Source of the DNA: a virus
Lineage: Duplodnaviria > Heunggongvirae > Uroviricota > Caudoviricetes
Strand: one strand, 5' to 3'
Length of the DNA: 64,000 nucleotides
IMG/VR virus record: IMGVR_UViG_3300017722_002988
Location: 67,760 to 131,759 of that record
Part shown: positions 13,735-58,520 of the stretch, in pieces
How the letters are laid out: every line of letters begins with the position of its first letter
Position numbering within the stretch: the stretch's first letter is position 1
The notes under the pieces: model-generated
Databases searched by the model: none
What the model was told of the DNA's origin: nothing
The model's input: the letters and a program-made list of their open reading frames with translations, nothing else
Translations under genes and position numbers: made by a program

Positions 13735-13777
13735 GTTGTGTACCTATTTTCCAGTTATCGTATTATGAGAATGTAAC
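13735..13777 (+). promoter_or_regulatory. phage promoter motif (TTGTGTAC, N17, TATTATGAGAATGTAA)
   Basis: Matches the recurrent consensus; lies upstream of ORF 13790. Confidence 0.6.
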
Positions 13778-13789
13778 TTGGAGCTACCT

Positions 13790-14059
13790 ATGATGATCAA
13801 CGTTCTGGATGGCCGGGACATTCGTTCGGTTTCTCGTGTGGAACTGCAGCGGATTTCTGAGCAGCTGATGAAGATCACGCGGACGCTGAACCAGGAAATC
13901 GGAATGCGCAACGCCTCGGACAGCTTCGTCTACGGCTGGAGAAACACGGACGGTAGCGGAACGTACACGACGTTCGATACGTTCCTGGAAGCTTGGGCCG
14001 AAGCTGAAAAGCAGCTTGGTTCGGGCGGAGGTTATCGAGTGCAGAACGTGCATCTGTAA
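13790..14059 (+). CDS. hypothetical protein
   Basis: ATG downstream of the promoter with a GGAG RBS. Confidence 0.5.
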   Translation: MMINVLDGRDIRSVSRVELQRISEQLMKITRTLNQEIGMRNASDSFVYGWRNTDGSGTYTTFDTFLEAWAEAEKQLGSGGGYRVQNVHL

Positions 14060-14064
14060 GAGAT

Positions 14065-14335
14065 TCAACCGGCGAGGCCGGGGTCATTGCAAAGGACCGG
14101 GTGCGAATCCCGGGGGCAATGGGTGCAACTCCCTAAGCCCGCACGTTAGCCGGTAGTGATTGGATAATGTCTGGACCCGAGGTTGCAGCCTTGGCCCTCC
14201 ACACATGCGAAAAGAGTAGTGAGACTAGCTTAAGCTGGATAGAGCGGGGACCCTGCGGTCCTAGGTACACGGGTTCGAGTCCCGATTCACTTTCGTCCCC
14301 CGAGGCACTGCAATGACTTGCGGGGCCTCTTTTCG
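14065..14335 (+). ncRNA. candidate structured non-coding RNA with two T-arm-like hairpins (CCGGGTGCGAATCCCGG; CGGGTTCGAGTCCCG)
   Basis: About 270 nt with no ORF, lying between a CDS and the next promoter; tRNA-like T-arm motifs; ends at a GC stem plus CTCTTTT. Confidence 0.35.
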
Positions 14336-14351
14336 TATGCGCCACTTTTTA

Positions 14352-14389
14352 TTGTACATATTTGTCAGACGGTGTAGGATAAGAATATG
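14352..14389 (+). promoter_or_regulatory. phage promoter motif (variant with TAGGATAAGAATATGAG -10)
   Basis: TTGTACA box plus the variant extended -10 shared with the 27725 copy. Confidence 0.5.
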
Positions 14390-14620
14390 AGAAATGTTGA
14401 CACACAAATTCACGCCGTCTTTGAGTCCGCTCTGGATGATATGTACGTCTTCCCTGACAACTCGACCCTGCGTCGCGAGTCTGGCAAGACTCCAAATGGC
14501 AATGACATGGATGGCCAATGGGTCTACCGTGACGCTAATGGGAATTTCCTTGACTACGGCTCGTACCGCCACGACCTGGCGGATCGCTTTAATCTCGTCC
14601 TCTATCCCAGAATCGTCTGA
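14387..14620 (+). CDS. hypothetical protein
   Basis: ORF downstream of the promoter. Confidence 0.5.
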   Translation: MRNVDTQIHAVFESALDDMYVFPDNSTLRRESGKTPNGNDMDGQWVYRDANGNFLDYGSYRHDLADRFNLVLYPRIV

Positions 14621-14725
14621 CATGAGAGTCATTAAAACCAAAATCGACCTGAGCATTCCGCTTGGGATCTTCTTCCGCTTTCCAGAGACCGGCTTCGTTC
14701 TCTGGACTCTGCTGGGGCGCGTGCT

Positions 14726-15850
14726 GTGAAATACCAATTTCCTGTCATCAACACGATCAATGACGTCCTTCCGCACCTCGATGGTCGGAAGGAGTTTGTC
14801 GTTGCCAACCGTGGTGACCACATCATCATCAACTACGCCGTGGCCTTCGCCGACACCTTCTGTCCGGTGACAACTCTCGGCGACGCGATCCGTCGTGAAT
14901 GCCGTGGCTTGATCTTTGATGCCAAGACCGGCAAGATCATCCGCCGTCCGTACCACAAGTTCTTCAATGTGGGCGAAAAGGAAGAGACCGACCCCAAGAT
15001 CATCGATGAACTGATCGACGCCATCTCGCTCGAGAAGCTCGATGGTTCGATGATCGCTCCTTATCCGGCCGCCGACGGTACGCTCCGTTGGGGCACCAAG
15101 ATGGGTGACACCGACGTGGCCAAGATGGTTCTTCCGTTCCTAACCGCGAACTCGAACTATGTTCAGTTCGCTCAGGTCGCTGTAGAATGTGGCCTTACTC
15201 CGATCTTCGAATTTTGCTCGCGTCAGCAGCGGATCGTCGTGGATTATGAGACCGAGCGCCTCGTTCTGACTGCGGTCCGCCATATGGAATCAGGTGCTTA
15301 TGTTGGCTATGACGGCCTGTGCGCTCTGGCCGATTCGTGGAGCATCGATGTCGTTGGGACCCTGGAGTTCGACAAAAACGCTGTCGGCGTCGAGGGTGTG
15401 GTCATCCGCCTGTCGGACGGCCACATGGCTAAGATGAAGGCCGAGTCATACATGCGTATCCACAAGGCCAAGGACAAGATCACGGTTGAGAAGAATGCCG
15501 TGGACGCCATCCTGAACAACGAGATCGATGACCTTCTGCCTGAACTTGGTCAGGAAGACCGTGACCGTGTTGTGGCTCTTGATGTTGCTCTTCATCGGTT
15601 TTTGGACAGCCGCTCGAAGATGTTGGCTTTAGAGGTGGCTGAAGACGTGGAGCTCTTCAAGGATAAGAAGACTTACGCTCTTGAGGCTCAACGCCCACAA
15701 TATATCAAGGCGGCTGTTTTCAAGATGTGGGATGAGCCGGAAGGTGCTTACGAGTACCTTATGGCCCAACTCACCAAGAGCCTGGGTAAGGAAGTCAACT
15801 ACGCTGACTTCAAGCGCATGTGGGGCTTCGACTATGACTATTCTCAGTAA
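14726..15850 (+). CDS. rnlA: RNA ligase 1 (T4 gp63 / Rnl1 family)
   Basis: 374 aa, matching T4 Rnl1 length; motif-I-like EKLDGSMIAPY, EGVVIR and the C-terminal HMAKMKAESYMRIHKAKD resemble Rnl1. Confidence 0.75.
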   Translation: MKYQFPVINTINDVLPHLDGRKEFVVANRGDHIIINYAVAFADTFCPVTTLGDAIRRECRGLIFDAKTGKIIRRPYHKFFNVGEKEETDPKIIDELIDAISLEKLDGSMIAPYPAADGTLRWGTKMGDTDVAKMVLPFLTANSNYVQFAQVAVECGLTPIFEFCSRQQRIVVDYETERLVLTAVRHMESGAYVGYDGLCALADSWSIDVVGTLEFDKNAVGVEGVVIRLSDGHMAKMKAESYMRIHKAKDKITVEKNAVDAILNNEIDDLLPELGQEDRDRVVALDVALHRFLDSRSKMLALEVAEDVELFKDKKTYALEAQRPQYIKAAVFKMWDEPEGAYEYLMAQLTKSLGKEVNYADFKRMWGFDYDYSQ

Positions 15851-18101: not shown

Positions 18102-18143
18102 TGTGTACGTATTTTCTAGTTATCGTATTATGAATGAATGAGA
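18102..18143 (+). promoter_or_regulatory. phage promoter motif
   Basis: TGTGTAC box, then TATTATGAATGAATGAG. Confidence 0.5.
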
Positions 18144-19080: not shown

Positions 19081-19120
19081 GTGTACATAATATTCTAGTA
19101 TCGTATTATGTAATTGTAAG
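19081..19120 (+). promoter_or_regulatory. phage promoter motif
   Basis: GTGTACATAA, then TATTATGTAATTGTAAG. Confidence 0.55.
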
Positions 19121-22937: not shown

Positions 22938-22979
22938 GTTGTACACAATTAGCAGACTGCTTATTATAGGAATGTAAGC
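22938..22979 (+). promoter_or_regulatory. phage promoter motif (TTGTACA, then CTGCTTATTATAGGAATGTAAG)
   Basis: Consensus match. Confidence 0.6.
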
Positions 22980-26667: not shown

Positions 26668-27297
26668 ATGCAAACACTCTGTCAATTCTGCGATAAAAGC
26701 TCTAGTAACCCTGGGGCATTAGCAAAACATCAAAAACACTGTAAAAACAATCCCGGCTACGTTAAGGCTTTTAGGAGTCCTAGAGCTGGGGCAAAAAAGG
26801 GTAGTACTCCTTGGAATAAAGGGAAATCTGGAGTTTACTCTTCTACAACCCTTGACAAAATGCGATCTTCTGGAGGACACCTTCATACCGAAGAGACCAA
26901 AAACAAGTTAAGTGTCATCGCTAAAAATAGCGGCCTCGGCGGATATACAAAAAATGGAGGTCGAGGCAAAAAAGGATATTTCAAAGGTATATGGTGTGAT
27001 AGCTCGTGGGAACTGGCCTATGTCATTTTCAATCTTGATCATGGGCATAAGATAGAGAAAAACTCTAAAGGCTTTCCTTACGAGCATGAAGGAAAAACAA
27101 AGAATTATATACCGGATTTTGTTTTAGAAGATGGCACATACGTAGAAATCAAAGGTTATTCTACTGAACAATGGCTACACAAGCAACACCACTTCAGTTA
27201 TCCATTGGTTACGCTATATAAAAGCGATATGAATACATACCTTTCTTATGTTATCGAAAAATACGGAAAGAATTTCATAGATCTTTACGAGAAATAA
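26668..27297 (+). CDS. putative homing endonuclease (Zn finger, NUMOD3-like, PD-(D/E)xK-like)
   Basis: CQFCDK...HQKHC finger shared with the HNH ORF; HTEETKNKLS NUMOD3-like repeat; IPDFVLEDGTYVEIKG. Confidence 0.5.
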   Translation: MQTLCQFCDKSSSNPGALAKHQKHCKNNPGYVKAFRSPRAGAKKGSTPWNKGKSGVYSSTTLDKMRSSGGHLHTEETKNKLSVIAKNSGLGGYTKNGGRGKKGYFKGIWCDSSWELAYVIFNLDHGHKIEKNSKGFPYEHEGKTKNYIPDFVLEDGTYVEIKGYSTEQWLHKQHHFSYPLVTLYKSDMNTYLSYVIEKYGKNFIDLYEK

Positions 27298-27414: not shown

Positions 27415-27455
27415 TTGTGTACTTAATATCCCAGCCGATTAGAATGGGAAGATAA
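27415..27455 (+). promoter_or_regulatory. phage promoter motif upstream of the tRNA block
   Basis: TTGTGTAC, then TTAGAATGGGAAGATAAATA. Confidence 0.4.
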
Positions 27456-27468
27456 ATACAGACTTAAT

Positions 27469-27724: not shown

Positions 27725-27765
27725 TGTGTACATATTATTCCTACGGTGTAGGATGAGAATATGAG
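27725..27765 (+). promoter_or_regulatory. phage promoter motif (variant)
   Basis: TTGTGTACA, then GGTGTAGGATGAGAATATGAG. Confidence 0.5.
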
Positions 27766-28936: not shown

Positions 28937-28976
28937 CTGTGTACATAATAACCAGCCAGTGTATATTGGGAGAATG
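28937..28976 (+). promoter_or_regulatory. phage promoter motif
   Basis: GTGTACATAATAA, then TATATTGGGAGAATGAG. Confidence 0.5.
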
Positions 28977-29047
28977 AGTTGAGCATCTAATGTTCCTCCT
29001 CTTCCACGGCAGCCCATCGGGTTGACGGCTTAGGATGAGACTGCCCT

Positions 29048-29077
29048 GGCAGACGGCTTGATAATAGTCTGCCACCA
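29048..29077 (+). ncRNA. acceptor-like mini-helix with encoded ACCA (GGCAGAC, 12-nt loop, GTCTGCC-ACCA)
   Basis: Perfect 7-bp stem followed by ACCA, then the AAGTTTAC spacer. Confidence 0.4.
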
Positions 29078-29085
29078 AAGTTTAC

Positions 29086-29160
29086 GGAGATGTCGTCTAA
29101 GACCGAGGACACCAGCGTAGAGCTGGAAATGGGGGTATCGAAATCCACCCTTCTCCACCA
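29086..29160 (+). ncRNA. degenerate tRNA-Glu-like unit with encoded CCA
   Basis: Acceptor GGAGATG/CTTCTCC; Glu-type D-arm TCGTCTAAGACCGAGGACACC; 5-nt-loop hairpin in place of the anticodon arm; GGTATCGAAATCC in place of the T-arm. Confidence 0.45.
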
Positions 29161-29168
29161 AAGTTTAC

Positions 29169-29242
29169 GGGCGGGTCGTCTAACATTTAGGACACCGGCA
29201 TTTGAGCCGGCAATGGTAGTGAAAATCTGCCCCCGCCCACCA
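29169..29242 (+). ncRNA. degenerate tRNA-Glu-like unit with encoded CCA
   Basis: Perfect acceptor GGGCGGG/CCCGCCC; D-arm TCGTCTAACATTTAGGACACC; preceded by the same AAGTTTAC spacer. Confidence 0.45.
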
Positions 29243-29450: not shown

Positions 29451-29490
29451 TTGTGTACATTAAATCAGAACTGCTTAGAATGAGAATATA
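29451..29490 (+). promoter_or_regulatory. phage promoter motif driving a non-coding region
   Basis: TTGTGTACAT, then CTGCTTAGAATGAGAATATAAG; no ORF follows. Confidence 0.5.
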
Positions 29491-30190
29491 AGATTGAGGC
29501 AGGGTGATGAACCCGTTAAGTCCTCCCAAGTTCGTGCTGCCGGGTTCGAAACCGCCAGTAAGAAGAAAGCGTCCTCCTGTAGGAACCCTCGAGGGAGATC
29601 GGGGTTGCGACTGTCGCAGGGAGGATGGGGTAAAAGTCCTCACGAGATCCCACCATTTCGCTCGAATGAGCAAACAAGATTGAATGAACGTGTGTGCGCA
29701 ACGGGCCACATGTAACCCTCGGTTGGGGTTCATTCATAAGATTGCCGTGTGCGGCAAAAGTCTGGGTAACCAGATGACAGGGAACGCCTCCCATAGGCCT
29801 CCCGACCTCTCCGGAGGGTAAAGCACACCGAACGGGCTACGAGAGGAGACTCTCGGCTTCATGTACCAATCATGGAGATACGTCCTAAGGATGGGAACTG
29901 AAAAGCCGGCCCCTAGCCGATGGTGGGGGGTTCTAACGGCAGGTCCGCAAGACCTAGGTTCACGCAAACCATTCTAAGACCGATGGCAAACGTTCAGAGG
30001 GTACCGCAAGTCCGAGGCCGCAACCAAGGGCAGGTATCATATCGATAGGAGACGGGCATACGGGCCGAAGGGTTCTGAGGAGACGTCATCTAGAAGATTT
30101 TTCGAGTAACTCGCAAGGTGAAAGGAATGAGTCGTGTTGCATTCTGTAGGGTAAAAGCCTTATGGAACAACTGGTCAAGCACGACTTGGT
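29491..30190 (+). ncRNA. large structured non-coding RNA candidate (about 700 nt) rich in C-GCAA-G hairpins
   Basis: No + strand ORF; recurrent CGCAAG GNRA-type hairpins (AGGTCCGCAAGACCT, CTCGCAAGGTG and others); promoter upstream. Confidence 0.4.
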
Positions 30191-30195
30191 GGGTT

Positions 30196-32804: not shown

Positions 32805-32845
32805 ATTGTACTTAATATCAGGACTTTGTATTATGAGAATGTAAG
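32805..32845 (+). promoter_or_regulatory. phage promoter motif
   Basis: TTGTACTTAAT, then TGTATTATGAGAATGTAAG. Confidence 0.6.
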
Positions 32846-33133: not shown

Positions 33134-33175
33134 AGTGTACATAAATGCCCAATGGCTTACTATGAGATAGTAAGC
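33134..33175 (+). promoter_or_regulatory. phage promoter motif
   Basis: TAGTGTACATAAAT, then TACTATGAGATAGTAAG. Confidence 0.5.
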
Positions 33176-35453: not shown

Positions 35454-35492
35454 TGTGTACATAATATCCCGGTGCTGTATATTGGGATTATG
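35454..35492 (+). promoter_or_regulatory. phage promoter motif
   Basis: GTGTACATAATA, then TGTATATTGGGATTATGAG. Confidence 0.5.
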
Positions 35493-35702
35493 AGCAATCA
35501 ATCCTGCACCCACTTCGTCGGCTTCAAAGGCGAAGAGTTTCATCGGGCGATCGCCGTGTTCGGCAAGCCTGATTTCATCCATCGTCAGAATGACGGCCGT
35601 TGCCGTTCGATGATCATGGATGAGGACGTGGCTGTTTATGCAAACGGGGCCGAAGTGCCCCACTCGAGCGTTTTTTCGTTCGATGATAGCTCTGTGATGT
35701 AA
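35490..35702 (+). CDS. hypothetical protein
   Basis: ATG within the extended -10 region (MSNQSCTHF). Confidence 0.4.
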   Translation: MSNQSCTHFVGFKGEEFHRAIAVFGKPDFIHRQNDGRCRSMIMDEDVAVYANGAEVPHSSVFSFDDSSVM

Positions 35703-39306: not shown

Positions 39307-39349
39307 GTTGTGTACTTACTTTCTTAACTGGTTATGATAAGAAAGTAAG
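39307..39349 (+). promoter_or_regulatory. phage promoter motif
   Basis: TTGTGTACTTAC, then TGGTTATGATAAGAAAGTAAG. Confidence 0.55.
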
Positions 39350-39621: not shown

Positions 39622-39662
39622 GTTGTACATAAATCCACAACTGCTTATGATAAGAAAGTAAG
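39622..39662 (+). promoter_or_regulatory. phage promoter motif
   Basis: TTGTACATAAAT, then CTGCTTATGATAAGAAAGTAAG. Confidence 0.55.
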
Positions 39663-41629: not shown

Positions 41630-41810
41630 GCCGATGCAGTTTGAAGACAAGGTCATCAATGCTCTTAAAAGTCATATGACAACAGGGCTTTTTAGACGGT
41701 GTCTACAGGAGTATTTGTTCGCGACTGGTCATCTCGCCTTGGAGCCACGAACCGGCTTGCTTCTTTATCGTGGGCATGTTGCGTGGTGGTTCTAAAATCG
41801 CACAAAGTGA

Positions 41811-41850
41811 TGTACACATATTTCAGACAGTGTATATTGGTAATGAGAGT
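41811..41850 (+). promoter_or_regulatory. phage promoter motif driving a single tRNA
   Basis: TGTACACATATTT, then TGTATATTGGTAATGAGAG directly 5' of the tRNA. Confidence 0.5.
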
Positions 41851-43202: not shown

Positions 43203-43245
43203 TTGTGTACTTAAATCCCAGACTGCTTATGATGGGAAAGTAAGA
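43203..43245 (+). promoter_or_regulatory. phage promoter motif
   Basis: TTGTGTACTTAAAT, then CTGCTTATGATGGGAAAGTAAG. Confidence 0.55.
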
Positions 43246-44215: not shown

Positions 44216-44306
44216 ACCCCTCCCTATAGGCGGTCTGACTCGTACGGCGTTCCGGAAGACGTTGAGTCGGTGGCAGTGCAAGTCTGGCCAAGGGGTGTCA
44301 ATTTTA

Positions 44307-44347
44307 TTGTACATAATTGTGCAACTGCTTATTATGGGAATGTAAGA
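44307..44347 (+). promoter_or_regulatory. phage promoter motif
   Basis: TTGTACATAATTGTG, then CAACTGCTTATTATGGGAATGTAAG. Confidence 0.6.
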
Positions 44348-44358
44348 AGGAATTCGAC

Positions 44359-44634
44359 ATGACCCAATATGCAGCTCCTCATAGTGCTATGGAAGCTCGT
44401 TTCAACCAAGCTTCGCTTTTCGATGAGGTCGATGACTCGGTTGAACTGTACTTTAAGGGCAAGGAAGTTGCCCACGTTCAGATCATGCGCGGCGCCGATT
44501 ACGGCGGCCGGACGCAGTATGCCGCTAGCATCTGGCTGACTGAAACCACTATGTGGATGGGCGTTCATCGCCTGACCTATAAAGAAGCGGCGAGCGATGC
44601 ACTGATTAAGTTGATCGGTCTCGGTCGTTACTAA
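44359..44634 (+). CDS. hypothetical protein
   Basis: ATG after the promoter (MTQYAAPHS). Confidence 0.5.
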   Translation: MTQYAAPHSAMEARFNQASLFDEVDDSVELYFKGKEVAHVQIMRGADYGGRTQYAASIWLTETTMWMGVHRLTYKEAASDALIKLIGLGRY

Positions 44635-44650
44635 TAAATAACCTTATCAT

Positions 44651-46453: not shown

Positions 46454-46493
46454 AGGTGTCATCATTTTCTAATCAGTGTACTATTTGATTATG

Positions 46494-46811
46494 AAACAGA
46501 TGTGGGAAATCCTGGTCCCTACCCAGCTTAACTGTGGGAAGCCGATCAGAACAAGACAGCACAGAGAATGGGACAGTCGGGTTCGTAAGATCACCGGCGG
46601 TCTTACTGTTCTGTCACCAGCTAAAGGCCAGTGGGTTGCGCCAGACGGGGTTCTCTTCACAGAGAGGATGATTCCTGTCCGGATTATCGCCACGAGGGAA
46701 GAGATCGATAAGATCATCGATATCACCATGGTCTTCTACGACCAGCTGGCCATTCTGTGTTATAAGGTGTCCGACGAGGTCATTTTGAAGCACAGGGTAA
46801 CGACTCTTTAA
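46494..46811 (+). CDS. hypothetical protein
   Basis: ATG after a short-form promoter box. Confidence 0.45.
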   Translation, partial: KQMWEILVPTQLNCGKPIRTRQHREWDSRVRKITGGLTVLSPAKGQWVAPDGVLFTERMIPVRIIATREEIDKIIDITMVFYDQLAILCYKVSDEVILKHRVTTL

Positions 46812-47094
46812 CCGCTTGTGGTGTACTATGGGATAGTAAGCCATGGAGACCATTATGTTCGACTTCCTCATCTGCCTTCCTATGATCTTCGTCGGTTTCG
46901 TCCTGCTGGGCGTGGCTGCTAAGATTTGGGGTCCTTATATTCTGGACAAGTTTGTATGAGCGAGGATTATCGTAGAGGGCAATGGGCCGCTCTAGATCGT
47001 GTCTTGCAGCTCCTTAACACTATCGAGGAGCGGCATATTGATCGCTCTAAATTGTATGCTATGATTCTTGATCTGCGGCCTCGTTGATCTTTCT

Positions 47095-47135
47095 AGTGTA
47101 CATTTAATTCAGACAGTGTACATTGGATAAATAAG
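47095..47135 (+). promoter_or_regulatory. phage promoter motif upstream of a tRNA block
   Basis: TAGTGTACATTTAAT, then AGTGTACATTGGATAAATAAG. Confidence 0.5.
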
Positions 47136-48458: not shown

Positions 48459-48740
48459 ATGAAACACGTCGGCCACTGTAAGAAGGAAGCCTATGACGTC
48501 TATATCGGCAGACCGTCGGTATGGGGCAACCCATTCGTGGTTGGAGTCGATGGTACGCGCTCTGAGGTGATTCGAAAGCATGCTGAGTGGATTGTCACCC
48601 AACCAGATCTCATGGCTCGCATCCATGAGCTAAGAGGTAAGAGGCTTGGGTGTTGGTGTTCTCCTAAAACGTGTCATGGTGACATTCTCGCAAAGCTGGC
48701 GAATGATTCCAGCCTGACCGCTTTTTTCGATGTACAATAA
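48459..48740 (+). CDS. DUF4326-like protein
   Basis: YDVYIGRPSVWGNPF...LRGKRLGCWCSPKTCHGD pattern. Confidence 0.5.
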   Translation: MKHVGHCKKEAYDVYIGRPSVWGNPFVVGVDGTRSEVIRKHAEWIVTQPDLMARIHELRGKRLGCWCSPKTCHGDILAKLANDSSLTAFFDVQ

Positions 48741-48770
48741 TAGCAGATAGCTTATTATAGGAATGTAAGT
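48730..48770 (+). promoter_or_regulatory. phage promoter motif
   Basis: TGTACAATAATAG, then CAGATAGCTTATTATAGGAATGTAAG. Confidence 0.55.
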
Positions 48771-50384: not shown

Positions 50385-50422
50385 GGTGTACTTAATTACC
50401 AATCGTTATAGTATGAGAATAT
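50385..50422 (+). promoter_or_regulatory. phage promoter motif
   Basis: GTGTACTTAATTACC, then TATAGTATGAGAATATGAC. Confidence 0.5.
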
Positions 50423-51479
50423 GACAATGATCAAATTTCCTTCCATCGAGCAGCTGCGGACGGTCGTAAAGAACGTCCAGCACCAGTCTCGATTTGCCGG
50501 TGTCGATGACACCGGGGAGCCCATCTTTGACAGCACTCGGCCCATCCCGACCCTTCGGTTTGTTGGCACGGTGAAGCTACATGGCACAAACGCCGGTATC
50601 GTTCTGGATCGTACCGGAACTGACTTCATCTACCAGTCCCGTGAGCGTGTTCTGACTCTTGAAGCTGACAACGCTGGTTTCATGGCCCATATGCAGGCTA
50701 ATCAGGACAGCGTCGATACGCTGTTCGCAACTGTCATGCTGCAGATTGAAGATCTCGACTCAGTCAAGTTCATCTGCATCTACGGCGAATGGTGTGGCGG
50801 AAACATTCAAAAAGGGGTCGGCATCTCCGGTCTTCCCAAGATGTTTGTGGTGTTCGGTATCAAGGTCATCTACGAGACTGACGATGACGGCTCCGAAGGT
50901 GTGTGGATTCCGGTTCAAAACATCCAATACGAAGACAAGGATGCTGGCATCTACAATGTCCATCAGTTCGGTTCTTGGACGATCGACATCGACTTCAACC
51001 ATCCCCAACTGTCTCAGCCCAAGCTCATCGAGCTGACCGAGATGGTTGAGGCTGAGTGCCCTGCCGGCAAGTTCTTCGGAAACACTGGTATCGGCGAGGG
51101 CATCGTCTGGCACTGTGAAGAGCCTGGCTTTACCTCTAGCCGCCTGTGGTTCAAGGTGAAGGGCGAGAAGCACTCTGTCTCCAAGGTCAAGACGCTGGCT
51201 CCGGTCGATGTTGAGGCCTACAAGAAGCAGCAGGACTTCATCGACTCTGTCGTGACCGAAGCTCGGCTGGAACAAGGCATTCAGAATCTCATCAACGAAC
51301 AGCAGAAGCCGTTCGAGATGGCGTCCATGGGTGACTTCATTCGTTGGGTCTTCAATGACATCGTCAAGGAAGAGACTGACACAATCGAGGCCAACGGCTT
51401 TGACTCTAAGAAGCTCGGTGGTCCTATTGCCAATAAGGCACGGCCCTGGTTCATTCAGCGGCTGAACAGCGAAGGTTAA
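50421..51479 (+). CDS. rnlB: RNA ligase 2 (T4 Rnl2 family)
   Basis: Motif I KLHGTN (T4 Rnl2 has KIHGTN); IYGEWCGGNIQKGVGI resembles VFGEFAGPGIQKNVDY; FVVFGI resembles FYVFDI; 352 aa. Confidence 0.75.
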   Translation: MTMIKFPSIEQLRTVVKNVQHQSRFAGVDDTGEPIFDSTRPIPTLRFVGTVKLHGTNAGIVLDRTGTDFIYQSRERVLTLEADNAGFMAHMQANQDSVDTLFATVMLQIEDLDSVKFICIYGEWCGGNIQKGVGISGLPKMFVVFGIKVIYETDDDGSEGVWIPVQNIQYEDKDAGIYNVHQFGSWTIDIDFNHPQLSQPKLIELTEMVEAECPAGKFFGNTGIGEGIVWHCEEPGFTSSRLWFKVKGEKHSVSKVKTLAPVDVEAYKKQQDFIDSVVTEARLEQGIQNLINEQQKPFEMASMGDFIRWVFNDIVKEETDTIEANGFDSKKLGGPIANKARPWFIQRLNSEG

Positions 51480-52671: not shown

Positions 52672-52712
52672 ATGTACACTATTGATTCGCCAGTGTAATA
52701 TGGGAGAATAGG
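52672..52712 (+). promoter_or_regulatory. phage promoter motif upstream of the DNA polymerase gene
   Basis: TATGTACACTATTG, then GTGTAATATGGGAGAATAGGAATG. Confidence 0.5.
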
Positions 52713-52724: not shown

Positions 52725-55280
52725 ATGACAGAACCCTATTTTTACACAGCAGTAGATCAGGCCAAGAATGGTGACCTTCTCGTTAGAGGTTATCAGAATG
52801 GCAAGCGCTTCATGCGCAAAGTTCAATACCGGCCACATCTCTTCGTTCCCACCAAAGGCGAGTCTAAGTACCGCACTCTTGATGGGAAGCCAGTCAAGCG
52901 GATGGACTTTGAGTCCATCAAGGAAGCCAAGACTTTCATCTATGACTATAAGGAAGTTCAGAACTTCGAGATATTCGGCCAAGACAAGTTTGCCTACTCG
53001 TACATCAATGATGAGTTTTACGGCGAGATCAACTTTGACCCTCAGCTAATCTCCGTGGTCGGTCTCGACATTGAGACCAAGACCGTGTCCGATGATGGCA
53101 AGAAGGGTTTCCCAGACATCGCCAAGGCTTCTCACCCGATCACGGCTATCACCATGAAGAAGTTCGGTGGCCCGACCTATATGTTCGGTCTGAAGGATTA
53201 TCGGCCGAAGGATAAGACTGTCACGTATTTCAAATGTGTGGACGAAGCATCCCTGCTGGCTGCCTTCATTGAACTGTGGGATGGTGAGGAGATGACTCCT
53301 GACATTCTCACCGGCTGGAACATCGAGTTCTTCGACATTCCCTATCTGGTCAACCGGATCACTAAGATCTTGGGTCCGACCATGGCCAAAATGCTGAGCC
53401 CGTGGCGTATCCTTGAAGAATATGAGGTTCTGGCTCGTGGCCGTACGCAAATGGCATTCCGCCCTGTCGGTGTGTCTTGTATGGACTACCTTCCCCTCTA
53501 CAAGAAGTTCAGCTTTAAGAACCAGGAGTCCTTTACCCTCGAGTACATCTCACAGGTGGAACTCAAGGAAGGCAAGACTGATACGTCAAACTATAAAGGT
53601 CTGGATGACCTGTACGAAAGAAACCCGACTCTCTACTATGACTACAACCTTCGAGATGTCCTTCTCATCGAACGACTGGAAGCCAAGCTCGGATTCATTG
53701 CGATGGTCGAGGCCTTCGCCTATGATGCCAAGGTGAACTACAACGACACTTTGGCAACCGTGAAGCCGTGGGACGTCATCATCTCGAACTTCCTTCTCGG
53801 CCGTAACATCGTGGTCCCGCAGTTCCGTCCGAAGCACCAAGAGAAGACGATCGTCGGCGGCTATGTCAAAGAACCCGTGCTTGGTATGTCCAAATGGGTC
53901 GTGTCTTTCGACTTGAATTCCCTGTATCCGTCTCTCATCATGGCTTACAACATCGGCCCTGACACCTTCATCGAGCAACTCGAAGAGGAAGATGATCTAG
54001 AGATGACCAATGCTAAGGTCGTCGAGATCATGAACGGTAAGCTGAACCAAAAGTATCAAGACGCACTTAGAGAAGACAACGTCTGCATCACAGCCAACAT
54101 GGCTCTGTATTCCAAGAAGAAGATCGGCTTTATGGCCGAACTCATGCAGCAGAAGTACGATCAGCGTAAGATCTATCAGGCTAAGCTCAAGGAAGCCAAG
54201 AAGGAATATGCCAAGACGAAGGATCCGGCTCAGGCTATTCTCATCAGTCGGTATCATGCGCTTCAGTTGTCCAAGAAGATCCAGATCAACGCCTTCTATG
54301 GTTCGATCGCCAACAAATATTGCCGTTGGTTCTCCCTGATCAACGCTGAGGCCATTACCACGACCGGCCAGCTGACCATCCAGTGGGTTCAGAAGGACAT
54401 CAACAAGTACCTGAACAAGGTGCTCGAGACTGAGGGTCTCGACTTCGTCATTGCTTCTGATACTGACTCCGCTTACATCACACTTGACAAGTTCGTTGAG
54501 AAGTTCTGTCAGAGTATGGATGACGGAGCTATCACTGACATGTTGGATAAGGTCTGCAAGACCAAGCTCCAAGACGTGATCAACAAGTCGTTCGAGCAAC
54601 AAGGCATCTATACTAACGCCTTTGACGCCACCAAGCTAGTCATGAAGCGTGAGTCCATTGCCTCCAAAGGTATCTGGGTTGCCAAGAAGCGCTACATCCT
54701 TTACGTCTGGGATAATGAGGGCATCCGTTATGAAGAGCCTGAGATCAAGATCACTGGTCTCGAGGTTGTGAAGTCCTCAACCCCGGGCGTATGCAAGAAG
54801 GCTATGAAGGAATGCTTTAAGCTGATCTTGACCAGGCCAGAGGATGAGCTCCACAGTTACATCGATGACTTCTATTCTCGGTTCATGGAACTACCATTCG
54901 AAGAAGTTGCTTCGCCACGTGGTATCTCTGACATGGACAAGTGGGTAGATCCTGCCACTATCTTCAAGAGTGGAACGCCGATGCATGTGAAGGGTGCCAT
55001 CATGTGGAACCATGCAATCTCTAAGAAAGGTCTTGATGATCGGCTGCCGACTCTTTATAACGGCGACAAGATCAAATATTCCTATCTGAAGAAACCCAAT
55101 CCCCTTAACGTAAACGTAATTTCTACCCCTGGTAATCTGCCATCAGAGCTGGGTCTGGACTCATACATAGATCGGGATATACAATTCCAAAAGACATTCA
55201 TCGATCCAATGAAATTGGTCACAGATGTCATCGGATGGACGCCCCAAAAAACGTATACACTCGATTCATTTTTTAGCTAG
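52725..55280 (+). CDS. 43: DNA polymerase gp43 (family B)
   Basis: Exonuclease motif DIETK; SLYPSLI; motif B KIQINAFYGS; motif C IASDTDSAYI; 851 aa. Confidence 0.95.
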   Translation: MTEPYFYTAVDQAKNGDLLVRGYQNGKRFMRKVQYRPHLFVPTKGESKYRTLDGKPVKRMDFESIKEAKTFIYDYKEVQNFEIFGQDKFAYSYINDEFYGEINFDPQLISVVGLDIETKTVSDDGKKGFPDIAKASHPITAITMKKFGGPTYMFGLKDYRPKDKTVTYFKCVDEASLLAAFIELWDGEEMTPDILTGWNIEFFDIPYLVNRITKILGPTMAKMLSPWRILEEYEVLARGRTQMAFRPVGVSCMDYLPLYKKFSFKNQESFTLEYISQVELKEGKTDTSNYKGLDDLYERNPTLYYDYNLRDVLLIERLEAKLGFIAMVEAFAYDAKVNYNDTLATVKPWDVIISNFLLGRNIVVPQFRPKHQEKTIVGGYVKEPVLGMSKWVVSFDLNSLYPSLIMAYNIGPDTFIEQLEEEDDLEMTNAKVVEIMNGKLNQKYQDALREDNVCITANMALYSKKKIGFMAELMQQKYDQRKIYQAKLKEAKKEYAKTKDPAQAILISRYHALQLSKKIQINAFYGSIANKYCRWFSLINAEAITTTGQLTIQWVQKDINKYLNKVLETEGLDFVIASDTDSAYITLDKFVEKFCQSMDDGAITDMLDKVCKTKLQDVINKSFEQQGIYTNAFDATKLVMKRESIASKGIWVAKKRYILYVWDNEGIRYEEPEIKITGLEVVKSSTPGVCKKAMKECFKLILTRPEDELHSYIDDFYSRFMELPFEEVASPRGISDMDKWVDPATIFKSGTPMHVKGAIMWNHAISKKGLDDRLPTLYNGDKIKYSYLKKPNPLNVNVISTPGNLPSELGLDSYIDRDIQFQKTFIDPMKLVTDVIGWTPQKTYTLDSFFS

Positions 55281-56399: not shown

Positions 56400-56706
56400 G
56401 GTTGCCCATGTTAAGCCCGAGGATCTAGGTCGTATCCTAGCCTCGGGCGACAGCCTGAAGAAACTAGCAATCGGGAAAGGTCACAAACCTTTCAAAGTCA
56501 CGCTGACCGAGACTCTTGAGATTAAAAGAAAGAGTGAACCAGCAATTGTCTACGCTACATCACAGGACAGAGTGACTGCTGCTGCACAGGACGTCACTTT
56601 CGACATGATTCCAAGCCAAGTGTATGAGGATGTTCAGGCGCTCCTTAAGCAATACGGTTTGGAAGTTCGTCCTAGGACTGTCTATTCCATTCAAAGGACC
56701 ACATGA
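56353..56706 (+). CDS. hypothetical protein at the position of T4 gene 40
   Basis: ORF overlapping the uvsX stop; its real start lies among the clustered ATGs after GGAG and is uncertain. Confidence 0.4.
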   Translation: MMMFETFNRTEESWGKVAHVKPEDLGRILASGDSLKKLAIGKGHKPFKVTLTETLEIKRKSEPAIVYATSQDRVTAAAQDVTFDMIPSQVYEDVQALLKQYGLEVRPRTVYSIQRTT

Positions 56707-58100
56707 AACTAGAACACGTCATATTCAGCAACCTGGTTTCAAACGAGGATTACCTGCGTAAGGTGTTTCCGTTCATCCAGAGGGATTACTTTTCAGACAC
56801 ATCTGACAAAGTAATCTTCGAGCTGATCCACGATTACATTACAAAATACAATAGGGCTCCGTCAAAGGAAGCTCTTAAAGTCGACCTGCAACTCAAAGAC
56901 AGCATCTCAGGAGATGTTTACTCGAACGTTGAAAAGACGATCGATGAACTGGCTCCTGATGCTATGACTAACATGAACTGGTTGGTGGATAACACCGAGA
57001 AGTTCTGTCAAGACAAGGCACTCTACAATGCTGTCCTAGAGTCTATCAAGATCATGGATGACAATCAGACACAGATTCCTAGGTCTGCTATTCCTAAGAT
57101 CCTGCAAGACGCACTGGGTATTTCGTTCGACTCTCAGATCGGCCACGACTTCATTGAGGATGCCGACGAACGCTTCGAGTTCTATCATCGTCATGACTCT
57201 AGATTGCCGTTCGACATTGAACTGCTGAACAAGATCACAGGCGGTGGTCTGCCTCCGAAGTCTCTGTCAGTCCTTCTGGCCGGCACGGGAGTCGGTAAGT
57301 CTCTAGCCATGTGTCATATGGCCTCTGCCAACCTGATGCTCGGCAAAAACGTCCTCTACATCACGATGGAGATGTCTGAGGAGAAGATTGCCGAACGTAT
57401 CGATGCCAACCTGATGAACACTCCTATTCAGGAGATGCTCCTCATGGACAAAGAGACGTTCGACCGTAAGATCGCACGCATCAAGTCCAAAACCGTCGGC
57501 AAGCTTGTTGTCAAGGAGTATCCTACGGCTTCGGCAGGGTCTGCAAACTTCAGACACCTGCTGAATGAACTGAAGATGAAGCGGAACTTTGTTCCTGACG
57601 TCATCTACATCGACTACCTGAACATCTGCACCAGCTCGCGTATTAAAGCCGGTGCCAATGTCAACTCCTACACGATGATCAAGGCGATCGCTGAAGAGCT
57701 TCGTGGTTTGGCTGTTGAGTTCAACGTTCCGATCATCACTGCCACCCAGATCAATCGTACTGGCTTTGCCAGTTCAGATCCTGAACTGACCGATACCTCT
57801 GAGTCATTTGGTCTGCCGGCCACGGCCGACTTCATGATTGCTATGTCTCAATCCGAGCAACTCGCTGAACTTGGTCAGATCATGTTCAAGCAGCTGAAGA
57901 ACCGCTACAACGACATCAACTATTATAAGAGGTTCGTGGTTGGTGTTGACAAATCTAAGATGAGACTGTTTGATATTGACCAAGATGAAGCCAACACGGA
58001 AGATAAACCGCTGATGGATAAGACTGAGTTCGGTCAACAAGACTTTGATCGGAAGAAACCTAAGAGTAAGTTCGCTAACAAGTTTGGAGATTTCAAATAA
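56703..58100 (+). CDS. 41: replicative DNA helicase gp41 (DnaB-like)
   Basis: Walker A AGTGVGKS; DnaB-family RecA-like core; 465 aa. Confidence 0.9.
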   Translation: MKLEHVIFSNLVSNEDYLRKVFPFIQRDYFSDTSDKVIFELIHDYITKYNRAPSKEALKVDLQLKDSISGDVYSNVEKTIDELAPDAMTNMNWLVDNTEKFCQDKALYNAVLESIKIMDDNQTQIPRSAIPKILQDALGISFDSQIGHDFIEDADERFEFYHRHDSRLPFDIELLNKITGGGLPPKSLSVLLAGTGVGKSLAMCHMASANLMLGKNVLYITMEMSEEKIAERIDANLMNTPIQEMLLMDKETFDRKIARIKSKTVGKLVVKEYPTASAGSANFRHLLNELKMKRNFVPDVIYIDYLNICTSSRIKAGANVNSYTMIKAIAEELRGLAVEFNVPIITATQINRTGFASSDPELTDTSESFGLPATADFMIAMSQSEQLAELGQIMFKQLKNRYNDINYYKRFVVGVDKSKMRLFDIDQDEANTEDKPLMDKTEFGQQDFDRKKPKSKFANKFGDFK

Positions 58101-58306
58101 TGGCTCGTAACCCTATCAACTATTCTGTGACTCATGAGAATGATGGAGTCTTTGATGTCTTCGAGAACAACACCAAGCAAGTCATCAGTTCACATAACCA
58201 TCATGATACAGCGCATGCGATGAAAAAGTTCCTTAATCTCGGAGGCGCTTTTGATGGAAACACCCCTGAGTTCTTCTTGCATACTGGCCCAGTGTTGGTT
58301 AAATAA
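58100..58306 (+). CDS. hypothetical protein
   Basis: Coupled ORF. Confidence 0.45.
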   Translation: MARNPINYSVTHENDGVFDVFENNTKQVISSHNHHDTAHAMKKFLNLGGAFDGNTPEFFLHTGPVLVK

Positions 58307-58455
58307 CGAAACTTTAATCTGAAAAATCCGTGCTCCAATGCATAAATAAGTGCACACATGATACGTGTCCAGCCTTCGGGCTAGAGGCAAGAGTTTTGAA
58401 CTAAGGAAGTGGCGAGACAAATGGTGGAGGTTCCACTCGCTCACGTATCGAGAAA

Positions 58456-58480
58456 ATAGCGGCTTCGGCCGCTATTTTCG
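58456..58480 (+). terminator. rho-independent terminator (ATAGCGGC-TTCG-GCCGCTAT-TTTCG)
   Basis: Perfect stem with a TTCG loop and a T-run. Confidence 0.8.
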
Positions 58481-58481
58481 T

Positions 58482-58520
58482 ATGTACTTAATATCGTGGT
58501 ATCGTATTATAGGAATATAA
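58482..58520 (+). promoter_or_regulatory. phage promoter motif
   Basis: TATGTACTTAATATCG, then TATCGTATTATAGGAATATAAC. Confidence 0.55.

What the first reader, a model, noticed from the sequence alone, without database searches (positions are those of the whole stretch)
13735..58520. Highly conserved bipartite promoter-like motif recurs more than 25 times, with a MotA-box-like CTGCTTA next to the -10
I read a consensus TTGTGTACA(T)AAT, about 16 nt, (a)CTGCTTA-TTATGAGAATGTAAG (a TATTAT -10 plus conserved downstream GAGAATGTAAG), 10-25 nt upstream of start codons or tRNA/ncRNA 5' ends. Copies sit near 13735, 14352, 18102, 19081, 22938, 27415, 27725, 28937, 29451, 32805, 33134, 35454, 39307, 39622, 41811, 43203, 44307, 47095, 48730, 50385, 52672 and 58482. 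Short-spacer variants occur near 46470 and 46805, and on the minus strand near 11655. The TGTACA element resembles a -35, and the TGCTTA immediately 5' of the -10 resembles the T4 middle-promoter MotA box. This is an unusually rigid and extended promoter architecture, and the conserved GAGAATGTAAG downstream of the -10 is unexplained.
Basis: seen in the sequence. Interest (0 to 1): 0.55.

Follow-up and report, generated by a model that had tools for sequence, protein, structure and literature searches.

The report
Early promoter cassettes of T4-like phage
The repeated motif is the lineage-specific early promoter of an uncultured T4-like phage, an expected kind of element, but about a third of the copies place the transcription start exactly on an ATG start codon, so those genes probably make leaderless mRNAs.

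Summary
There are 22 strong copies plus 3 weaker ones (leave-one-out scores 31-52 bits; best shuffle 13.5). All are intergenic, and 24 of 25 point the same way as the genes.

The window comes from a T4-superfamily phage: gp45, gp44, gp62 and regA, then a 43-kb plastic region with about 40 tRNAs, then gp43.

The geometry is that of a sigma70-type promoter: kTGTAC (-35), a 17-bp spacer in 23 of 25 copies, TAnnAT (-10), then GRGAAT and R-T-R-A-G. The -35 differs at one base from the T4 early GTTTAC.

The MotA-box idea fails. TGCTTA occurs in only 5 of 25 copies, at -16 to -11 rather than about -30. A -35 box is present, and Pfam and PHROGs found no MotA or AsiA in the window.

The "unexplained" downstream block fits a discriminator plus start site. 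Position +1 is a purine 7 nt after the -10. Where +1 to +3 is ATG, it nearly always opens an ORF: 26 of 30 pooled copies, from 15 unrelated protein families.

Diverged uncultured phages carry the same motif. In close relatives it marks ORF-swap junctions, as PeSL cassettes do. This is a new member of a known kind, and the probable leaderless subclass is the notable part.

The parts
11654..11693 (-). Promoter copy on the minus strand: GTGTAC-17-TACATT, GATAAT, GTAAG, then SD and a GTG start for ORF 11642..11106. It forms a divergent pair with the next copy.
11715..11755 (+). Promoter copy with an 18-bp spacer. ATG at predicted +1 (11751) opens an RNA-ligase-like ORF that runs to 12395.
13738..13777 (+). 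Promoter copy with a 17-nt leader containing GGAG.
14352..14391 (+). Promoter copy. ATG at +1 (14387) is the first possible start of a 77-aa ORF (leaderless type).
18103..18142 (+). Promoter copy. ATG at +1 (18138) opens an 81-aa ORF. The L127 orthologue has GTG at the same position.
19081..19120 (+). Promoter copy with a 17-nt leader containing AAGGAG.
22939..22978 (+). Promoter copy directly after a GC hairpin and T-run (terminator-like). Belongs to the TGCTTA subclass.
27417..27456 (+). Promoter copy inside the tRNA region. No ORF follows it; the next tRNA is 191 nt downstream.
27726..27765 (+). Promoter copy. ATG at +1 (27761) opens a 51-aa ORF.
28939..28978 (+). Promoter copy in front of an ORF-free stretch. 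ATG at +1 is followed by a stop after 2 codons, so the product is probably an RNA.
29453..29492 (+). Promoter copy upstream of the GOLLD RNA region. Belongs to the TGCTTA subclass.
32806..32845 (+). Promoter copy directly after a strong hairpin and T-run. The ORF downstream of it is replaced in relative L124.
33135..33174 (+). Promoter copy after a hairpin and T-run. It is the right-hand boundary of the ORF replacement seen against L124.
35455..35494 (+). Promoter copy. ATG at +1 (35490) opens a 70-aa ORF.
39310..39349 (+). Promoter copy with a 15-nt leader containing AAGGAG.
39623..39662 (+). Promoter copy of the TGCTTA subclass with a 19-nt leader.
41810..41849 (+). Promoter copy. The tRNA with anticodon CTA starts 9 nt after predicted +1.
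43205..43244 (+). Promoter copy with the highest score (55 bits). TGCTTA subclass.
44307..44346 (+). Promoter copy. Promoter plus ORF (44305-44645) behave as one cassette, which a different segment replaces in L144 and L150.
46456..46495 (+). Weak copy with a degraded -35 (GTGTCA). ATG at +1 (46491) opens a 106-aa ORF.
47096..47135 (+). Promoter copy 12 nt upstream of a tRNA. In L144 the same promoter, up to two bases past the -10, is joined to an ORF instead.
48730..48769 (+). Promoter copy. It is 85-87% identical over 55-62 nt to copies in otherwise unrelated contigs L014, L015, L017 and L036.
50386..50425 (+). Promoter copy. ATG at +1 (50421) opens the 352-aa RNA ligase gene.
52672..52712 (+). 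Weaker copy with an 18-bp spacer, after a hairpin and T-run, upstream of the DNA polymerase gene (gp43).
58482..58521 (+). Promoter copy after a hairpin and T-run. Orthologues in L037 and L038 keep the core positions, and a diverged copy sits at the same genomic place in L106.
9171..9192 (+). Half copy: the -35 block only, after a T-run, upstream of ORF 9236..10348.
46819..46840 (+). Half copy: -10 block, discriminator and GTAAG only, with no -35 box.

Best explanation
Each copy is an early-type transcription promoter of an uncultured T4-superfamily phage. It is most likely read by the host's primary-sigma RNA polymerase.

Proposed layout:
- An A/T-rich stretch at about -41 to -39.
- A -35 box, kTGTAC(w)TAAt.
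- A 17-bp spacer whose last bases are semi-conserved (CTGCT, CAGTG or ATCG).
- A -10 hexamer, TAnnAT.
- A purine-rich discriminator, GRGAAT.
- Initiation at the purine 7 nt downstream of the -10, giving RNAs that begin R-U-R-A-G.

The copies cut the 47-kb plastic region into about 25 short transcription units of small ORFs, tRNA clusters and a GOLLD RNA. There are two output types. In about 14 copies a 15-29-nt leader with a Shine-Dalgarno sequence follows. In 7 copies +1 to +3 is the ATG of the gene, so the mRNA would be leaderless.

Because the roughly 45-bp element is repeated and conserved, it also acts as a patch of homology at which ORF cassettes are swapped. This is how PeSL elements of T4-like phages are described.

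Shown here: the motif, its geometry, its placement, its conservation in other phages, the ATG/ORF association and the swap junctions. Inferred: that RNA polymerase starts at position 33, which polymerase form reads the motif, and early timing.
For: Identity of the phage:
- gp43 DNA polymerase is 44-45% identical to those of Sinorhizobium phiM12-group phages and cyanomyoviruses.
- gp45, gp44, regA, a UvsX-like RecA, a gp41-like helicase and RNA ligases are present.

Statistics:
- 22 sites score 39-55 bits against a shuffle maximum of 13.5.
- Leave-one-out scores are 31-52 bits, and all copies are intergenic in a window that is 79% coding.

Geometry:
- The spacer is 17 bp in 23 of 25 copies.
- In the 22 strong copies used for the matrix, the T and A at the first two -10 positions and the T at the last are invariant.
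- T at -1 and a purine at +1 predominate (about 60% T and about 96% purine in the pseudocount-smoothed matrix).
- GTGTAC differs from the T4 early -35 GTTTAC at one base (PMC1524935).
- Early -35 consensus is known to vary between T4-like groups: TTGACA, TTTACW and TTGYVH, each with N17 (PMC4122927).

Start site:
- Among 105 unique copies pooled from the window and relatives, ATG occupies +1 to +3 in 30.
- 26 of those 30 open ORFs of at least 40 codons, against 15 of 72 for non-start triplets (Fisher p = 6e-10).
- These ORFs belong to 15 unrelated protein families. They include N-termini that look native, MKLALISDTHH (metallophosphoesterase-like) and MKNPPVLYMFVGLPGSGKST (P-loop).
- One orthologue has GTG in place of ATG.
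- In 4 window cases the ATG is the first start codon of its ORF.

Leadered copies carry GGAG, AGGA or AAGG 4-12 nt before the start codon.

Six copies directly follow a GC hairpin and T-run.

Conservation:
- The motif recurs several times per contig in IMG/VR contigs of 42-56% GC.
- These contigs share few ORFs with the window (32-57% amino-acid identity), and the only nucleotide similarity is the promoter itself.
- In close relatives, mismatches are 0-12% inside the motif against 20-36% immediately upstream.

Cassette junctions at the motif are documented.
Against: - There are no transcript data, so the start site, the timing and the polymerase are all inferred.
- Against the E. coli consensus the copies score only 9 of 12, and only when TGTACA is paired with a 16-bp spacer. 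A generic sigma70 scan of 27-47 kb is not enriched overall (20 found, 16.6 expected). The strongly conserved bases are therefore partly non-consensus and could reflect another recognition factor.
- The host is unknown.
- Only 64 kb of the genome was available, so a phage-encoded activator could lie elsewhere.
- In two leaderless-type copies the -10 hexamer TAGGAT supplies an AGGA 7 nt before the ATG. That could serve read-through transcripts.
- Relatives chosen by motif score bias the orthologue conservation profile.
Confidence: 0.75

Rival explanations
1. The copies are promoters, but the extended -35 box GTGTACwTAAt (about -35 to -24) is the binding site of a phage-encoded or virion-injected factor. 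That factor would replace or assist sigma region 4, as in sigma appropriation but without a MotA homologue. The motif would then be a phage-specific (middle-like) promoter class rather than a plain host promoter.
For: - The box is 11-12 bp long, is centred near -30, and ends 13 bp before the -10. That is the geometry described for the MotA box (PMC2988021).
- Its invariant bases, TGTAC, are not the sigma70 consensus. They score 3-4 of 6.
- The same box is kept across phages of 42-56% GC.
- Total information is about 44 bits, which I judge to be more than sigma recognition alone needs.
Against: - No MotA, AsiA, sigma or other transcription-factor family was detected in the window ORFs with Pfam or PHROGs.
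- No second, more host-like promoter class is visible in front of the small early-type ORFs, so something must fire these units on unmodified polymerase.
- T4 early promoters show the same kind of non-consensus, extended -35, GTTTACw (PMC1524935).
- TTG-T-ACA contains both halves of TTGACA.
Confidence: 0.13
2. The repeats are primarily recombination or mobility sequences, that is, cassette boundaries or homing and integration targets. Their promoter-like look would be incidental.
For: - Indel and replacement junctions between close relatives fall in or next to the motif: in the 5'UTR after 32808, just after the -10 of 47098, and at the -35 edge of 44309.
- About 14 of 61 alignment breaks lie within 40 nt of a motif centre. 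My rough estimate is about 5 if breaks were placed at random.
- Homing-endonuclease-like genes are present in the region.
Against: - Orientation is always that of the downstream gene.
- The distance to the start codon is fixed.
- The conserved positions are exactly those of -35, -10 and +1.
- The ATG-at-+1 rule has no explanation under a pure recombination-site model.
- There are no inverted repeats or target-site duplications.
- Most breaks are not at motifs, and intergenic DNA is break-prone anyway.
- PeSL work shows that promoter function and recombination coexist (PMC2839356).
Confidence: 0.05
3. The ATG-at-+1 genes are not leaderless. They would be translated from longer read-through transcripts started at upstream copies. 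The purine-rich GRGA of the discriminator, or AGGA within the -10, would act as a close-spaced Shine-Dalgarno sequence.
For: - TAGGAT at -10 in copies 14354 and 27728 puts AGGA 7 nt before the ATG.
- GGGA or GAGA lies 2-4 nt before the ATG in others.
- Only about a quarter of the copies have an upstream terminator hairpin, so read-through is plausible.
Against: - Most ATG-at-+1 copies in the window and relatives have no SD-like run at a workable spacing (TATTATGAATGAATG, TACTATTTGATTATG, TATGATAAGAATATG).
- The same discriminator is conserved in copies that have their own downstream SD.
- The exact 7-nt distance from the -10 to the ATG is what leaderless genes show, and an SD model does not require it.
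Confidence: 0.2

Closest known systems
T4-type early promoters (T4, RB69, RB49, 44RR, Aeh1, KVP40; PMC1524935, PMC2988021)
   Same: - Bipartite sigma70-type layout with N17 spacing.
- A -35 that deviates from TTGACA in a phage-specific way (T4 GTTTAC against GTGTAC here).
- A/T-rich upstream region.
- Conserved bases just 5' of the -10.
- Extra consensus beyond the hexamers.
- Dozens of copies upstream of small novel ORFs and tRNA genes, all co-oriented with them.
   Different: - G at the third base of the -35 box.
- A/T-rich extension wTAAt after the box.
- No TGn at -15/-14; the TG, where present, sits one base further upstream.
- Strong conservation of -6 to +5 (GRGAAT, then RTRAG).
- About 30% of copies start on an ATG.
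- The host and the timing are unknown.
PeSL cassettes (promoter-early stem-loops) of T4-like phages (Arbiol et al. 2010, PMC2839356; Comeau et al. 2014, PMC4122927)
   Same: - A conserved composite intergenic element with an early promoter, SD and start codon at its 3' end.
- Concentrated in hyperplastic regions rich in ORFans.
- ORF insertions, deletions and replacements between close relatives have junctions between the -10 and the ATG or at the upstream A/T-rich edge.
- Degraded half copies exist.
   Different: - A clear stem-loop with T-run accompanies only about 6 of 25 copies.
- About 7 copies lack the SD part altogether (leaderless type).
- Several copies drive tRNAs or a GOLLD RNA.
- Mini-circle formation was not tested.
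T4 middle (MotA/AsiA-dependent) promoters
   Same: - A good -10 element.
- The hexamer TGCTTA occurs in 5 copies.
- The -35 box here has a length and position similar to a MotA box.
   Different: - TGCTTA sits at -16 to -11, not at -35 to -26.
- A conserved -35-type box is present.
- The box sequence (GTGTACwTAA) is not (a/t)(a/t)(a/t)TGCTTtA.
- No motA or asiA homologue was found in the window.
Leaderless genes of bacteria, where the -10 lies about 7 nt upstream of the start codon, as in Actinobacteria and Deinococcus (general knowledge; modelled in GeneMarkS-2)
   Same: - The ATG lies exactly 7 nt after a TAnnnT-type -10.
- No SD is present.
- The pattern recurs across many unrelated genes.
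   Different: - It is seen here in a T4-like phage, mixed with SD-led genes under the same promoter type.
- My two searches combining 'leaderless' with T4-like phage and promoter terms found no description of it.

Membership tests
T4-type early (host sigma70-class) promoter | Two hexamers, -35 and -10, separated by 17 +/- 1 bp, with A at -11 and T at -7 | tested here: met
   kTGTAC-N17-TAnnAT in 23 of 25 copies and N18 in 2. In the 22 strong copies, T and A at the first two -10 positions and T at the last are invariant.
T4-type early (host sigma70-class) promoter | The -35 region resembles T4 GTTTAC or host TTGACA | tested here: met
   GTGTAC matches GTTTAC at 5 of 6 positions (PMC1524935). 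It matches TTGACA at 3-4 of 6. The generic scan scores 9 of 12.
T4-type early (host sigma70-class) promoter | Located 5' of, and co-oriented with, early-type genes, novel ORFs and tRNA genes | tested here: met
   25 of 25 copies are intergenic. All precede a co-oriented ORF, tRNA or ncRNA.
T4-type early (host sigma70-class) promoter | A/T-rich UP-like region upstream of the -35 | tested here: inconclusive
   Positions -41 to -39 are W-rich (0.5-1.0 bit), often as the T-run of a terminator or as AAATAG. No extended A-tract consensus is present.
T4-type early (host sigma70-class) promoter | Transcribed by unmodified host RNA polymerase immediately after infection | not testable with these tools
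   No RNA data are available and the host is unknown.
PeSL cassette | A stem-loop (terminator or attenuator) joined to the promoter | tested here: inconclusive
   A clear GC hairpin with T-run lies within 55 nt upstream of copies 14354, 22941, 32808, 33137, 52674 and 58484. The other copies follow a stop codon directly.
PeSL cassette | SD and start codon at the 3' end of the element | tested here: inconclusive
   Met in 13-14 copies, with leaders of 15-29 nt. Not met in 7 ATG-at-+1 copies or in 4 RNA-gene copies.
PeSL cassette | Concentrated in hyperplastic regions with ORFans | tested here: met
   All copies lie between 11.6 and 58.5 kb, mostly in the tRNA- and ORFan-rich stretch between regA (8539-8955) and gp43 (52725). 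None lies in 1-9 kb or 59-64 kb.
PeSL cassette | Insertions, deletions and replacements between close relatives have junctions in the element | tested here: met
   Three junctions were verified by alignment (32808/33137 against L124, 47098 against L144, 44305-44645 against L144/L150). About 14 of 61 breaks lie within 40 nt of a motif centre.
PeSL cassette | Formation of excised mini-circles | not testable with these tools
   Needs inverse PCR on infected cells.
T4 middle (MotA-dependent) promoter | MotA box (a/t)(a/t)(a/t)TGCTTtA centred at -30, 12 +/- 1 bp from the -10 | tested here: not met
   TGCTTA occupies -16 to -11 and overlaps the -10. It is present in 5 of 25 copies. The definition is taken from PMC2988021.
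T4 middle (MotA-dependent) promoter | No sigma70-type -35 element | tested here: not met
   A conserved kTGTAC box at -35 to -30 is present in 24 of 25 copies.
T4 middle (MotA-dependent) promoter | The phage encodes MotA and AsiA | tested here: inconclusive
   No hit to MotA or AsiA families in Pfam or PHROGs for ORFs of the 64-kb window. The rest of the genome was not available.
T4 late promoter | TATAAATA at -13 to -6 with no -35 element | tested here: not met
   The motif lacks TATAAATA. Only 3 TATAAATA occur in the window (23579, 25288, 35730). I estimate about 2 by chance over both strands.
Single-subunit phage RNA polymerase promoter (T7-like) | One contiguous block of about 20 bp from -17 to +6, and a phage RNAP gene | tested here: not met
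   The conservation is bipartite, reaching to -41 with sigma-type hexamers. No RNAP domain was found in the window.
Leaderless mRNA gene | The primary 5' end coincides with the A of the start codon | not testable with these tools
   Only genomic support is available. ATG lies exactly 7 nt after the -10 in 30 of 105 unique copies. 26 of these open ORFs, from 15 unrelated families.

The most novel reading that the evidence does not exclude
This clade of uncultured T4-like phages may run its early programme from a dedicated initiation signal. The unusual 12-bp box GTGTACwTAAt would be read by something other than unmodified host sigma region 4, such as an injected or early phage factor with no MotA or AsiA homology. 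The hard-wired start site would yield leaderless mRNAs for about a third of early genes. That would be a previously undescribed mode of expression for the T4 superfamily.
Probability: 0.12. Interest if true: 0.6.

Novelty: new member of a known kind. Interest (0 to 1): 0.3.

Why it matters
- The motif gives a ready-made, very specific signature (about 44 bits) for annotating transcription units and true start codons in a lineage of uncultured T4-like phages. Standard gene callers would mis-start about 30% of the promoter-proximal genes there.
- It extends the PeSL idea, in which promoters double as recombination linkers, to a distant branch of the T4 superfamily, with concrete swap junctions.
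- If the leaderless reading is confirmed, it would be the first case I am aware of in the T4 superfamily (my two targeted literature searches found none). It would also hint at a host with efficient leaderless translation, which would help host assignment.

Tried and rejected
1. Megablast of 20 kb against 50,697 phage records found no match. An exact-protein look-up of gp43 found nothing on record. The phage could therefore not be named.
2. My genome-contig scan used a pattern whose spacer was one base too long. It is uninformative, and host inference from bacterial genomes was lost.
3. In gp43 relatives from IMG/VR, only L037 and L038 (97-98% identity) and one distant locus (L106, weak 18-bp-spacer copy) carry the motif. 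The 77 loci at 46-49% identity or below (about 0.85 Mb) do not. The motif is therefore not a general feature of that wider gp43 clade.
4. The T4 late motif TATAAATA occurs 3 times, which I judge not to be above chance.
5. The generic sigma70 scan is not enriched overall and flags only the TGTACA-16-TAnnAT copies, at 9 of 12. It is of little use as independent support.
6. The MotA/AsiA reading was rejected on position, frequency and absence of homologues in the window.
7. A control using 'all ATGs in the window' was inappropriate: 42% are in open frames because the strand is mostly coding. I replaced it with non-start triplets at +1.
8. Literature searches combining TGTAC, early promoter and T4-like, and combining leaderless with T4-like phage and promoter terms, found no prior description.
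9. By eye, 23536 and 31222 look like further diverged 18-bp-spacer copies. They fall below my score threshold and are not counted.

Full report
**What the window is.** ORF translations identify a T4-superfamily phage.
- There is a family-B DNA polymerase (52725-55280) that is 44-45% identical to gp43 of the Sinorhizobium phiM12 group and of cyanomyoviruses.
- There is also a UvsX-like RecA, a DnaB-type helicase, two kinds of RNA ligase and NAMPT.
- The sliding clamp gp45 (6406-7122) and clamp loader gp44 (7153-8094) are followed by an ORF at the gp62 position (8097-8492; no family hit, assigned by gene order). Then comes the translational regulator RegA (8539-8955).
- No close DNA relative exists among 50,697 phage records.
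- ARAGORN finds 38 tRNA genes between 23.7 and 48 kb, and Rfam finds three more plus a GOLLD RNA.
- From my memory of the T4 gene order, regA and gene 43 are neighbours in T4. Here they are 43 kb apart, and the space is filled with small ORFs, tRNAs and homing-endonuclease-like genes. That is a hyperplastic region.

**Is the motif there?** Yes.
- I anchored on the G of GTAC (position 0). The listed sites align without gaps: kTGTACwTAAt at -2 to +9, T-A-n-n-A-T at 21-26, GRGAAT at 27-32, and R-T-R-A-G at 33-37.
- A 46-column matrix finds 22 sites at 39-55 bits. Thirty first-order shuffles peak at 13.5.
- Leave-one-out scores are 31-52 bits, and total information is about 44 bits. Scores are bimodal: 22 positions score at least 30 and 3 fall between 8 and 30.
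- Allowing the second block to shift adds 11717(+) and 52674(+), both with one extra spacer base, and a weak copy at 46458.
- Half copies lie at 9173 (-35 half) and 46822 (-10 half).
- Of the 25 full copies, 24 are on the plus strand, like almost all genes here. The minus-strand copy (11654-11693) faces the only minus-strand gene pair next to a copy and forms a divergent pair with 11717(+).
- No copy lies inside a gene, although about 79% of the window is CDS or tRNA.
TGCTTA is present in 5 of 25 copies.

**What the geometry says.** I place TAnnAT at -12 to -7.
- The box kTGTAC then falls at -35 to -30 with a 17-bp spacer in 23 of 25 copies. This is the canonical primary-sigma layout, with the first two and the last bases of the -10 invariant.
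- TTG-T-ACA contains both halves of TTGACA split by one T. A generic scan reads TGTACA-16-TAnnAT at 9 of 12.
- GTGTAC differs at one base from GTTTAC, the T4 early -35. Other T4-like groups are reported with TTGACA, TTTACW or TTGYVH, each with N17 (PMC1524935; PMC4122927).
- The same papers describe an A-rich region upstream, a GT-rich stretch just 5' of -12, and extra regions of consensus in T4 early promoters (PMC2988021).

**The MotA-box idea.**
- A MotA box is centred at -30, lies 12 +/- 1 bp from the -10 and replaces the -35 element (PMC2988021).
- Here TGCTTA occupies -16 to -11, is in a minority of copies, and coexists with a conserved -35 box.
- Pfam and PHROGs scans of the window's called ORFs gave no MotA, AsiA, sigma or RNA polymerase hit.
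- I reject this part of the interpretation. One caveat remains: the rest of the genome is unseen. The extended -35 box itself has MotA-box-like size and position, and I keep that as a minority rival.

**The downstream block.**
- Position 33 is 7 nt after the -10. It is a purine in about 96% of the matrix, and the base before it is mostly T (about 60%). From general knowledge of bacterial RNA polymerase, a pyrimidine at -1 and a purine at +1 is the usual start-site preference.
- GRGAAT is then the discriminator. It is purine-rich and often GGGA-like, a sequence that (from memory of work on sigma region 1.2) stabilises open complexes. RTRAG is the first five transcribed bases.
- Independent genomic support for this start site comes from the copies in which 33-35 is ATG.
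  - In the window there are 8 such copies, and 7 open ORFs of 51-352 codons (11751, 14387, 18138, 27761, 35490, 46491 and 50421, the last being an RNA ligase). For four of them the ATG is the first start codon in the frame.
  - Pooling 105 unique copies from the window and related contigs gives 30 with ATG at +1. Of these, 26 open ORFs of at least 40 codons, against 15 of 72 when +1 is not a start triplet (Fisher p = 6e-10).
  - The ORFs fall into 15 unrelated families. Two have N-termini that look native for their folds (MKLALISDTHH... and MKNPPVLYMFVGLPGSGKST...).
  - One orthologue carries GTG instead of ATG.
  - Most of these copies have no usable Shine-Dalgarno sequence.
- The other copies carry GGAG, AGGA or AAGG 4-12 nt before a start codon that lies 15-29 nt from +1. 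Alternatively they sit 9-12 nt before a tRNA, or upstream of the GOLLD region.
- The simplest reading is one promoter type with two outputs: short SD leaders, and leaderless mRNAs.

**Relatives.**
- Pattern scans of IMG/VR and of JGI metagenomes returned many contigs with several copies each.
- One set (L003, L006/L009, L012, L014, L015, L017, L023, L024, L026, L033, L034, L036; GC 42-56%) shares almost no ORFs with the window. The few shared ones are 32-57% identical. The only nucleotide similarity is the promoter itself, 85-87% over 55-62 nt.
- A second set (L124-L127, L137, L139, L144, L146, L150, L153, L037, L038) is 79-100% identical to parts of the window.
- In 25 orthologous pairs, mismatches are 0-12% inside the motif and 20-36% just upstream of it. 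That comparison is biased, because the sites were chosen by score.
- Loci whose gp43 is only 46-49% identical lack the motif, except L106, which has a diverged copy at the same genomic place as 58484.

**Cassette behaviour.** The close relatives differ from the window by dozens of insertions, deletions and replacements. I checked three by alignment.
- Between copies 32808 and 33137 the ORF is replaced in L124 (329 against 859 nt between the boxes). Identity runs through terminator, promoter and leader up to AAGGAACA and resumes at the next promoter.
- Copy 47098 is identical in L144 up to two bases past the -10. It then continues into an SD and an ORF instead of the tRNA.
- The unit 44305-44645 (promoter plus a 91-codon ORF) is replaced in L144 and L150 by an unrelated 206-nt segment.

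These junctions (between the -10 and the ATG, and at the upstream edge) are the ones reported for PeSL-mediated shuffling in RB49/phi1, T4/PST and KVP40/nt-1 (PMC2839356; PMC4122927). About 14 of 61 breaks lie within 40 nt of a motif centre. My rough estimate is about 5 if breaks fell at random. That enrichment is not corrected for the general fragility of intergenic DNA or for shared ancestry of events. A clear hairpin with T-run precedes only about six copies, so the 'SL' part of PeSL is only partly met.

**Verdict.**
- The promoter reading is supported, and the MotA reading is not.
- The downstream block is explained as discriminator plus start site.
- The element is a new member of a known kind: T4-type early promoters that double as PeSL-like recombination linkers, in an uncultured lineage.
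- The part a specialist might not expect is the systematic ATG-at-+1 subclass. It implies leaderless early mRNAs in a T4-like phage, and I found no description of this in two targeted literature searches.
- Everything about actual transcription (start site, timing and which polymerase form) remains inferred.

**Errors and limits.**
- One collection scan was wasted on a mis-spaced pattern.
- Gene calls are my own crude codon-usage calls.
- Relatives are not independent samples.
- The host is unknown.

Noticed in passing
window 30129-30597 (+), with 29453-29492 upstream: Rfam GOLLD RNA (RF02032, 173.5 bits against a gathering score of 150) with tRNA-Ser(tga) 30196-30267 embedded. It lies in an ORF-poor stretch (28.9-31.2 kb) downstream of two promoter copies. 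Predicted +1 at 29488 could be its 5' end. A 59-codon GTG ORF called there is probably spurious.
   Followed up: partly
window 41854-41928: A tRNA with anticodon CTA (amber-reading; ARAGORN labels it 'Pyl') starts 9 nt after the predicted +1 of promoter copy 41812. In relatives L126 and L150 the same promoter is followed by a tRNA whose 5' sequence differs (GCACCTTTAGCTCAGT against GCACCTATGGCCTAATGG).
   Followed up: partly
window 8955-52725: regA and gene 43 are separated here by about 43 kb of small ORFs, about 40 tRNA genes, homing-endonuclease-like genes and the GOLLD RNA. From my memory of the T4 map, the two genes are adjacent in T4. This is an unusually large hyperplastic insertion inside the replication module.
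   Followed up: partly
window 44182-44206; also 43400-44300: A T-arm and acceptor-like sequence ending in CCA (GGTTCGATTCCGGGGGTGTCCACCA) lies in a 0.9-kb ORF-free gap. Neither ARAGORN nor Rfam calls it as a tRNA. It may be an atypical tRNA or part of another structured RNA.
   Followed up: no
window 28974-29450: About 480 nt lie between two promoter copies with no ORF (ATG at +1 is followed by a stop after 2 codons) and no Rfam hit at gathering threshold. This is a candidate unannotated RNA.
   Followed up: no
window 23579, 25288, 35730 (+): Three exact T4-late-type TATAAATA octamers, all on the plus strand and intergenic, lie upstream of ORF 23599, ORF 25320 and tRNA-Asn 35752. By my estimate the number is not above chance (about 2 expected over both strands).
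   Followed up: partly
window 26668-27297 and 37241-37864: Homing-endonuclease-like ORFs (a PHROGs endonuclease, and a GIY-YIG SegE-like / PHROGs homing endonuclease) are interspersed among the tRNA clusters.
   Followed up: no
L127 around 6444-6480, against window 18138: The orthologue of the leaderless-type gene 18138 has GTG instead of ATG at predicted +1, and the ORF is otherwise conserved. This is a start-codon-type substitution.
   Followed up: partly
window 11106-11642 (-), 11751-12395 (+), 14726-15850, 33920-34801, 50421-51479: There is a dense set of RNA-repair-type genes: two PF09414 RNA ligases, a T4 Rnl1-type ligase, a RlaP-type nucleotidyltransferase and a metallophosphoesterase. 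They sit alongside the very large tRNA set.
   Followed up: no
window 23536 and 31222 (+): By eye these are two further diverged promoter-like copies with an 18-bp spacer (GTGTAC...TAGAAT and TGTACC...TAAAGT), upstream of ORF 23599 and of the SPFH-domain gene 31289. Both fall below my score threshold and are not counted.
   Followed up: no
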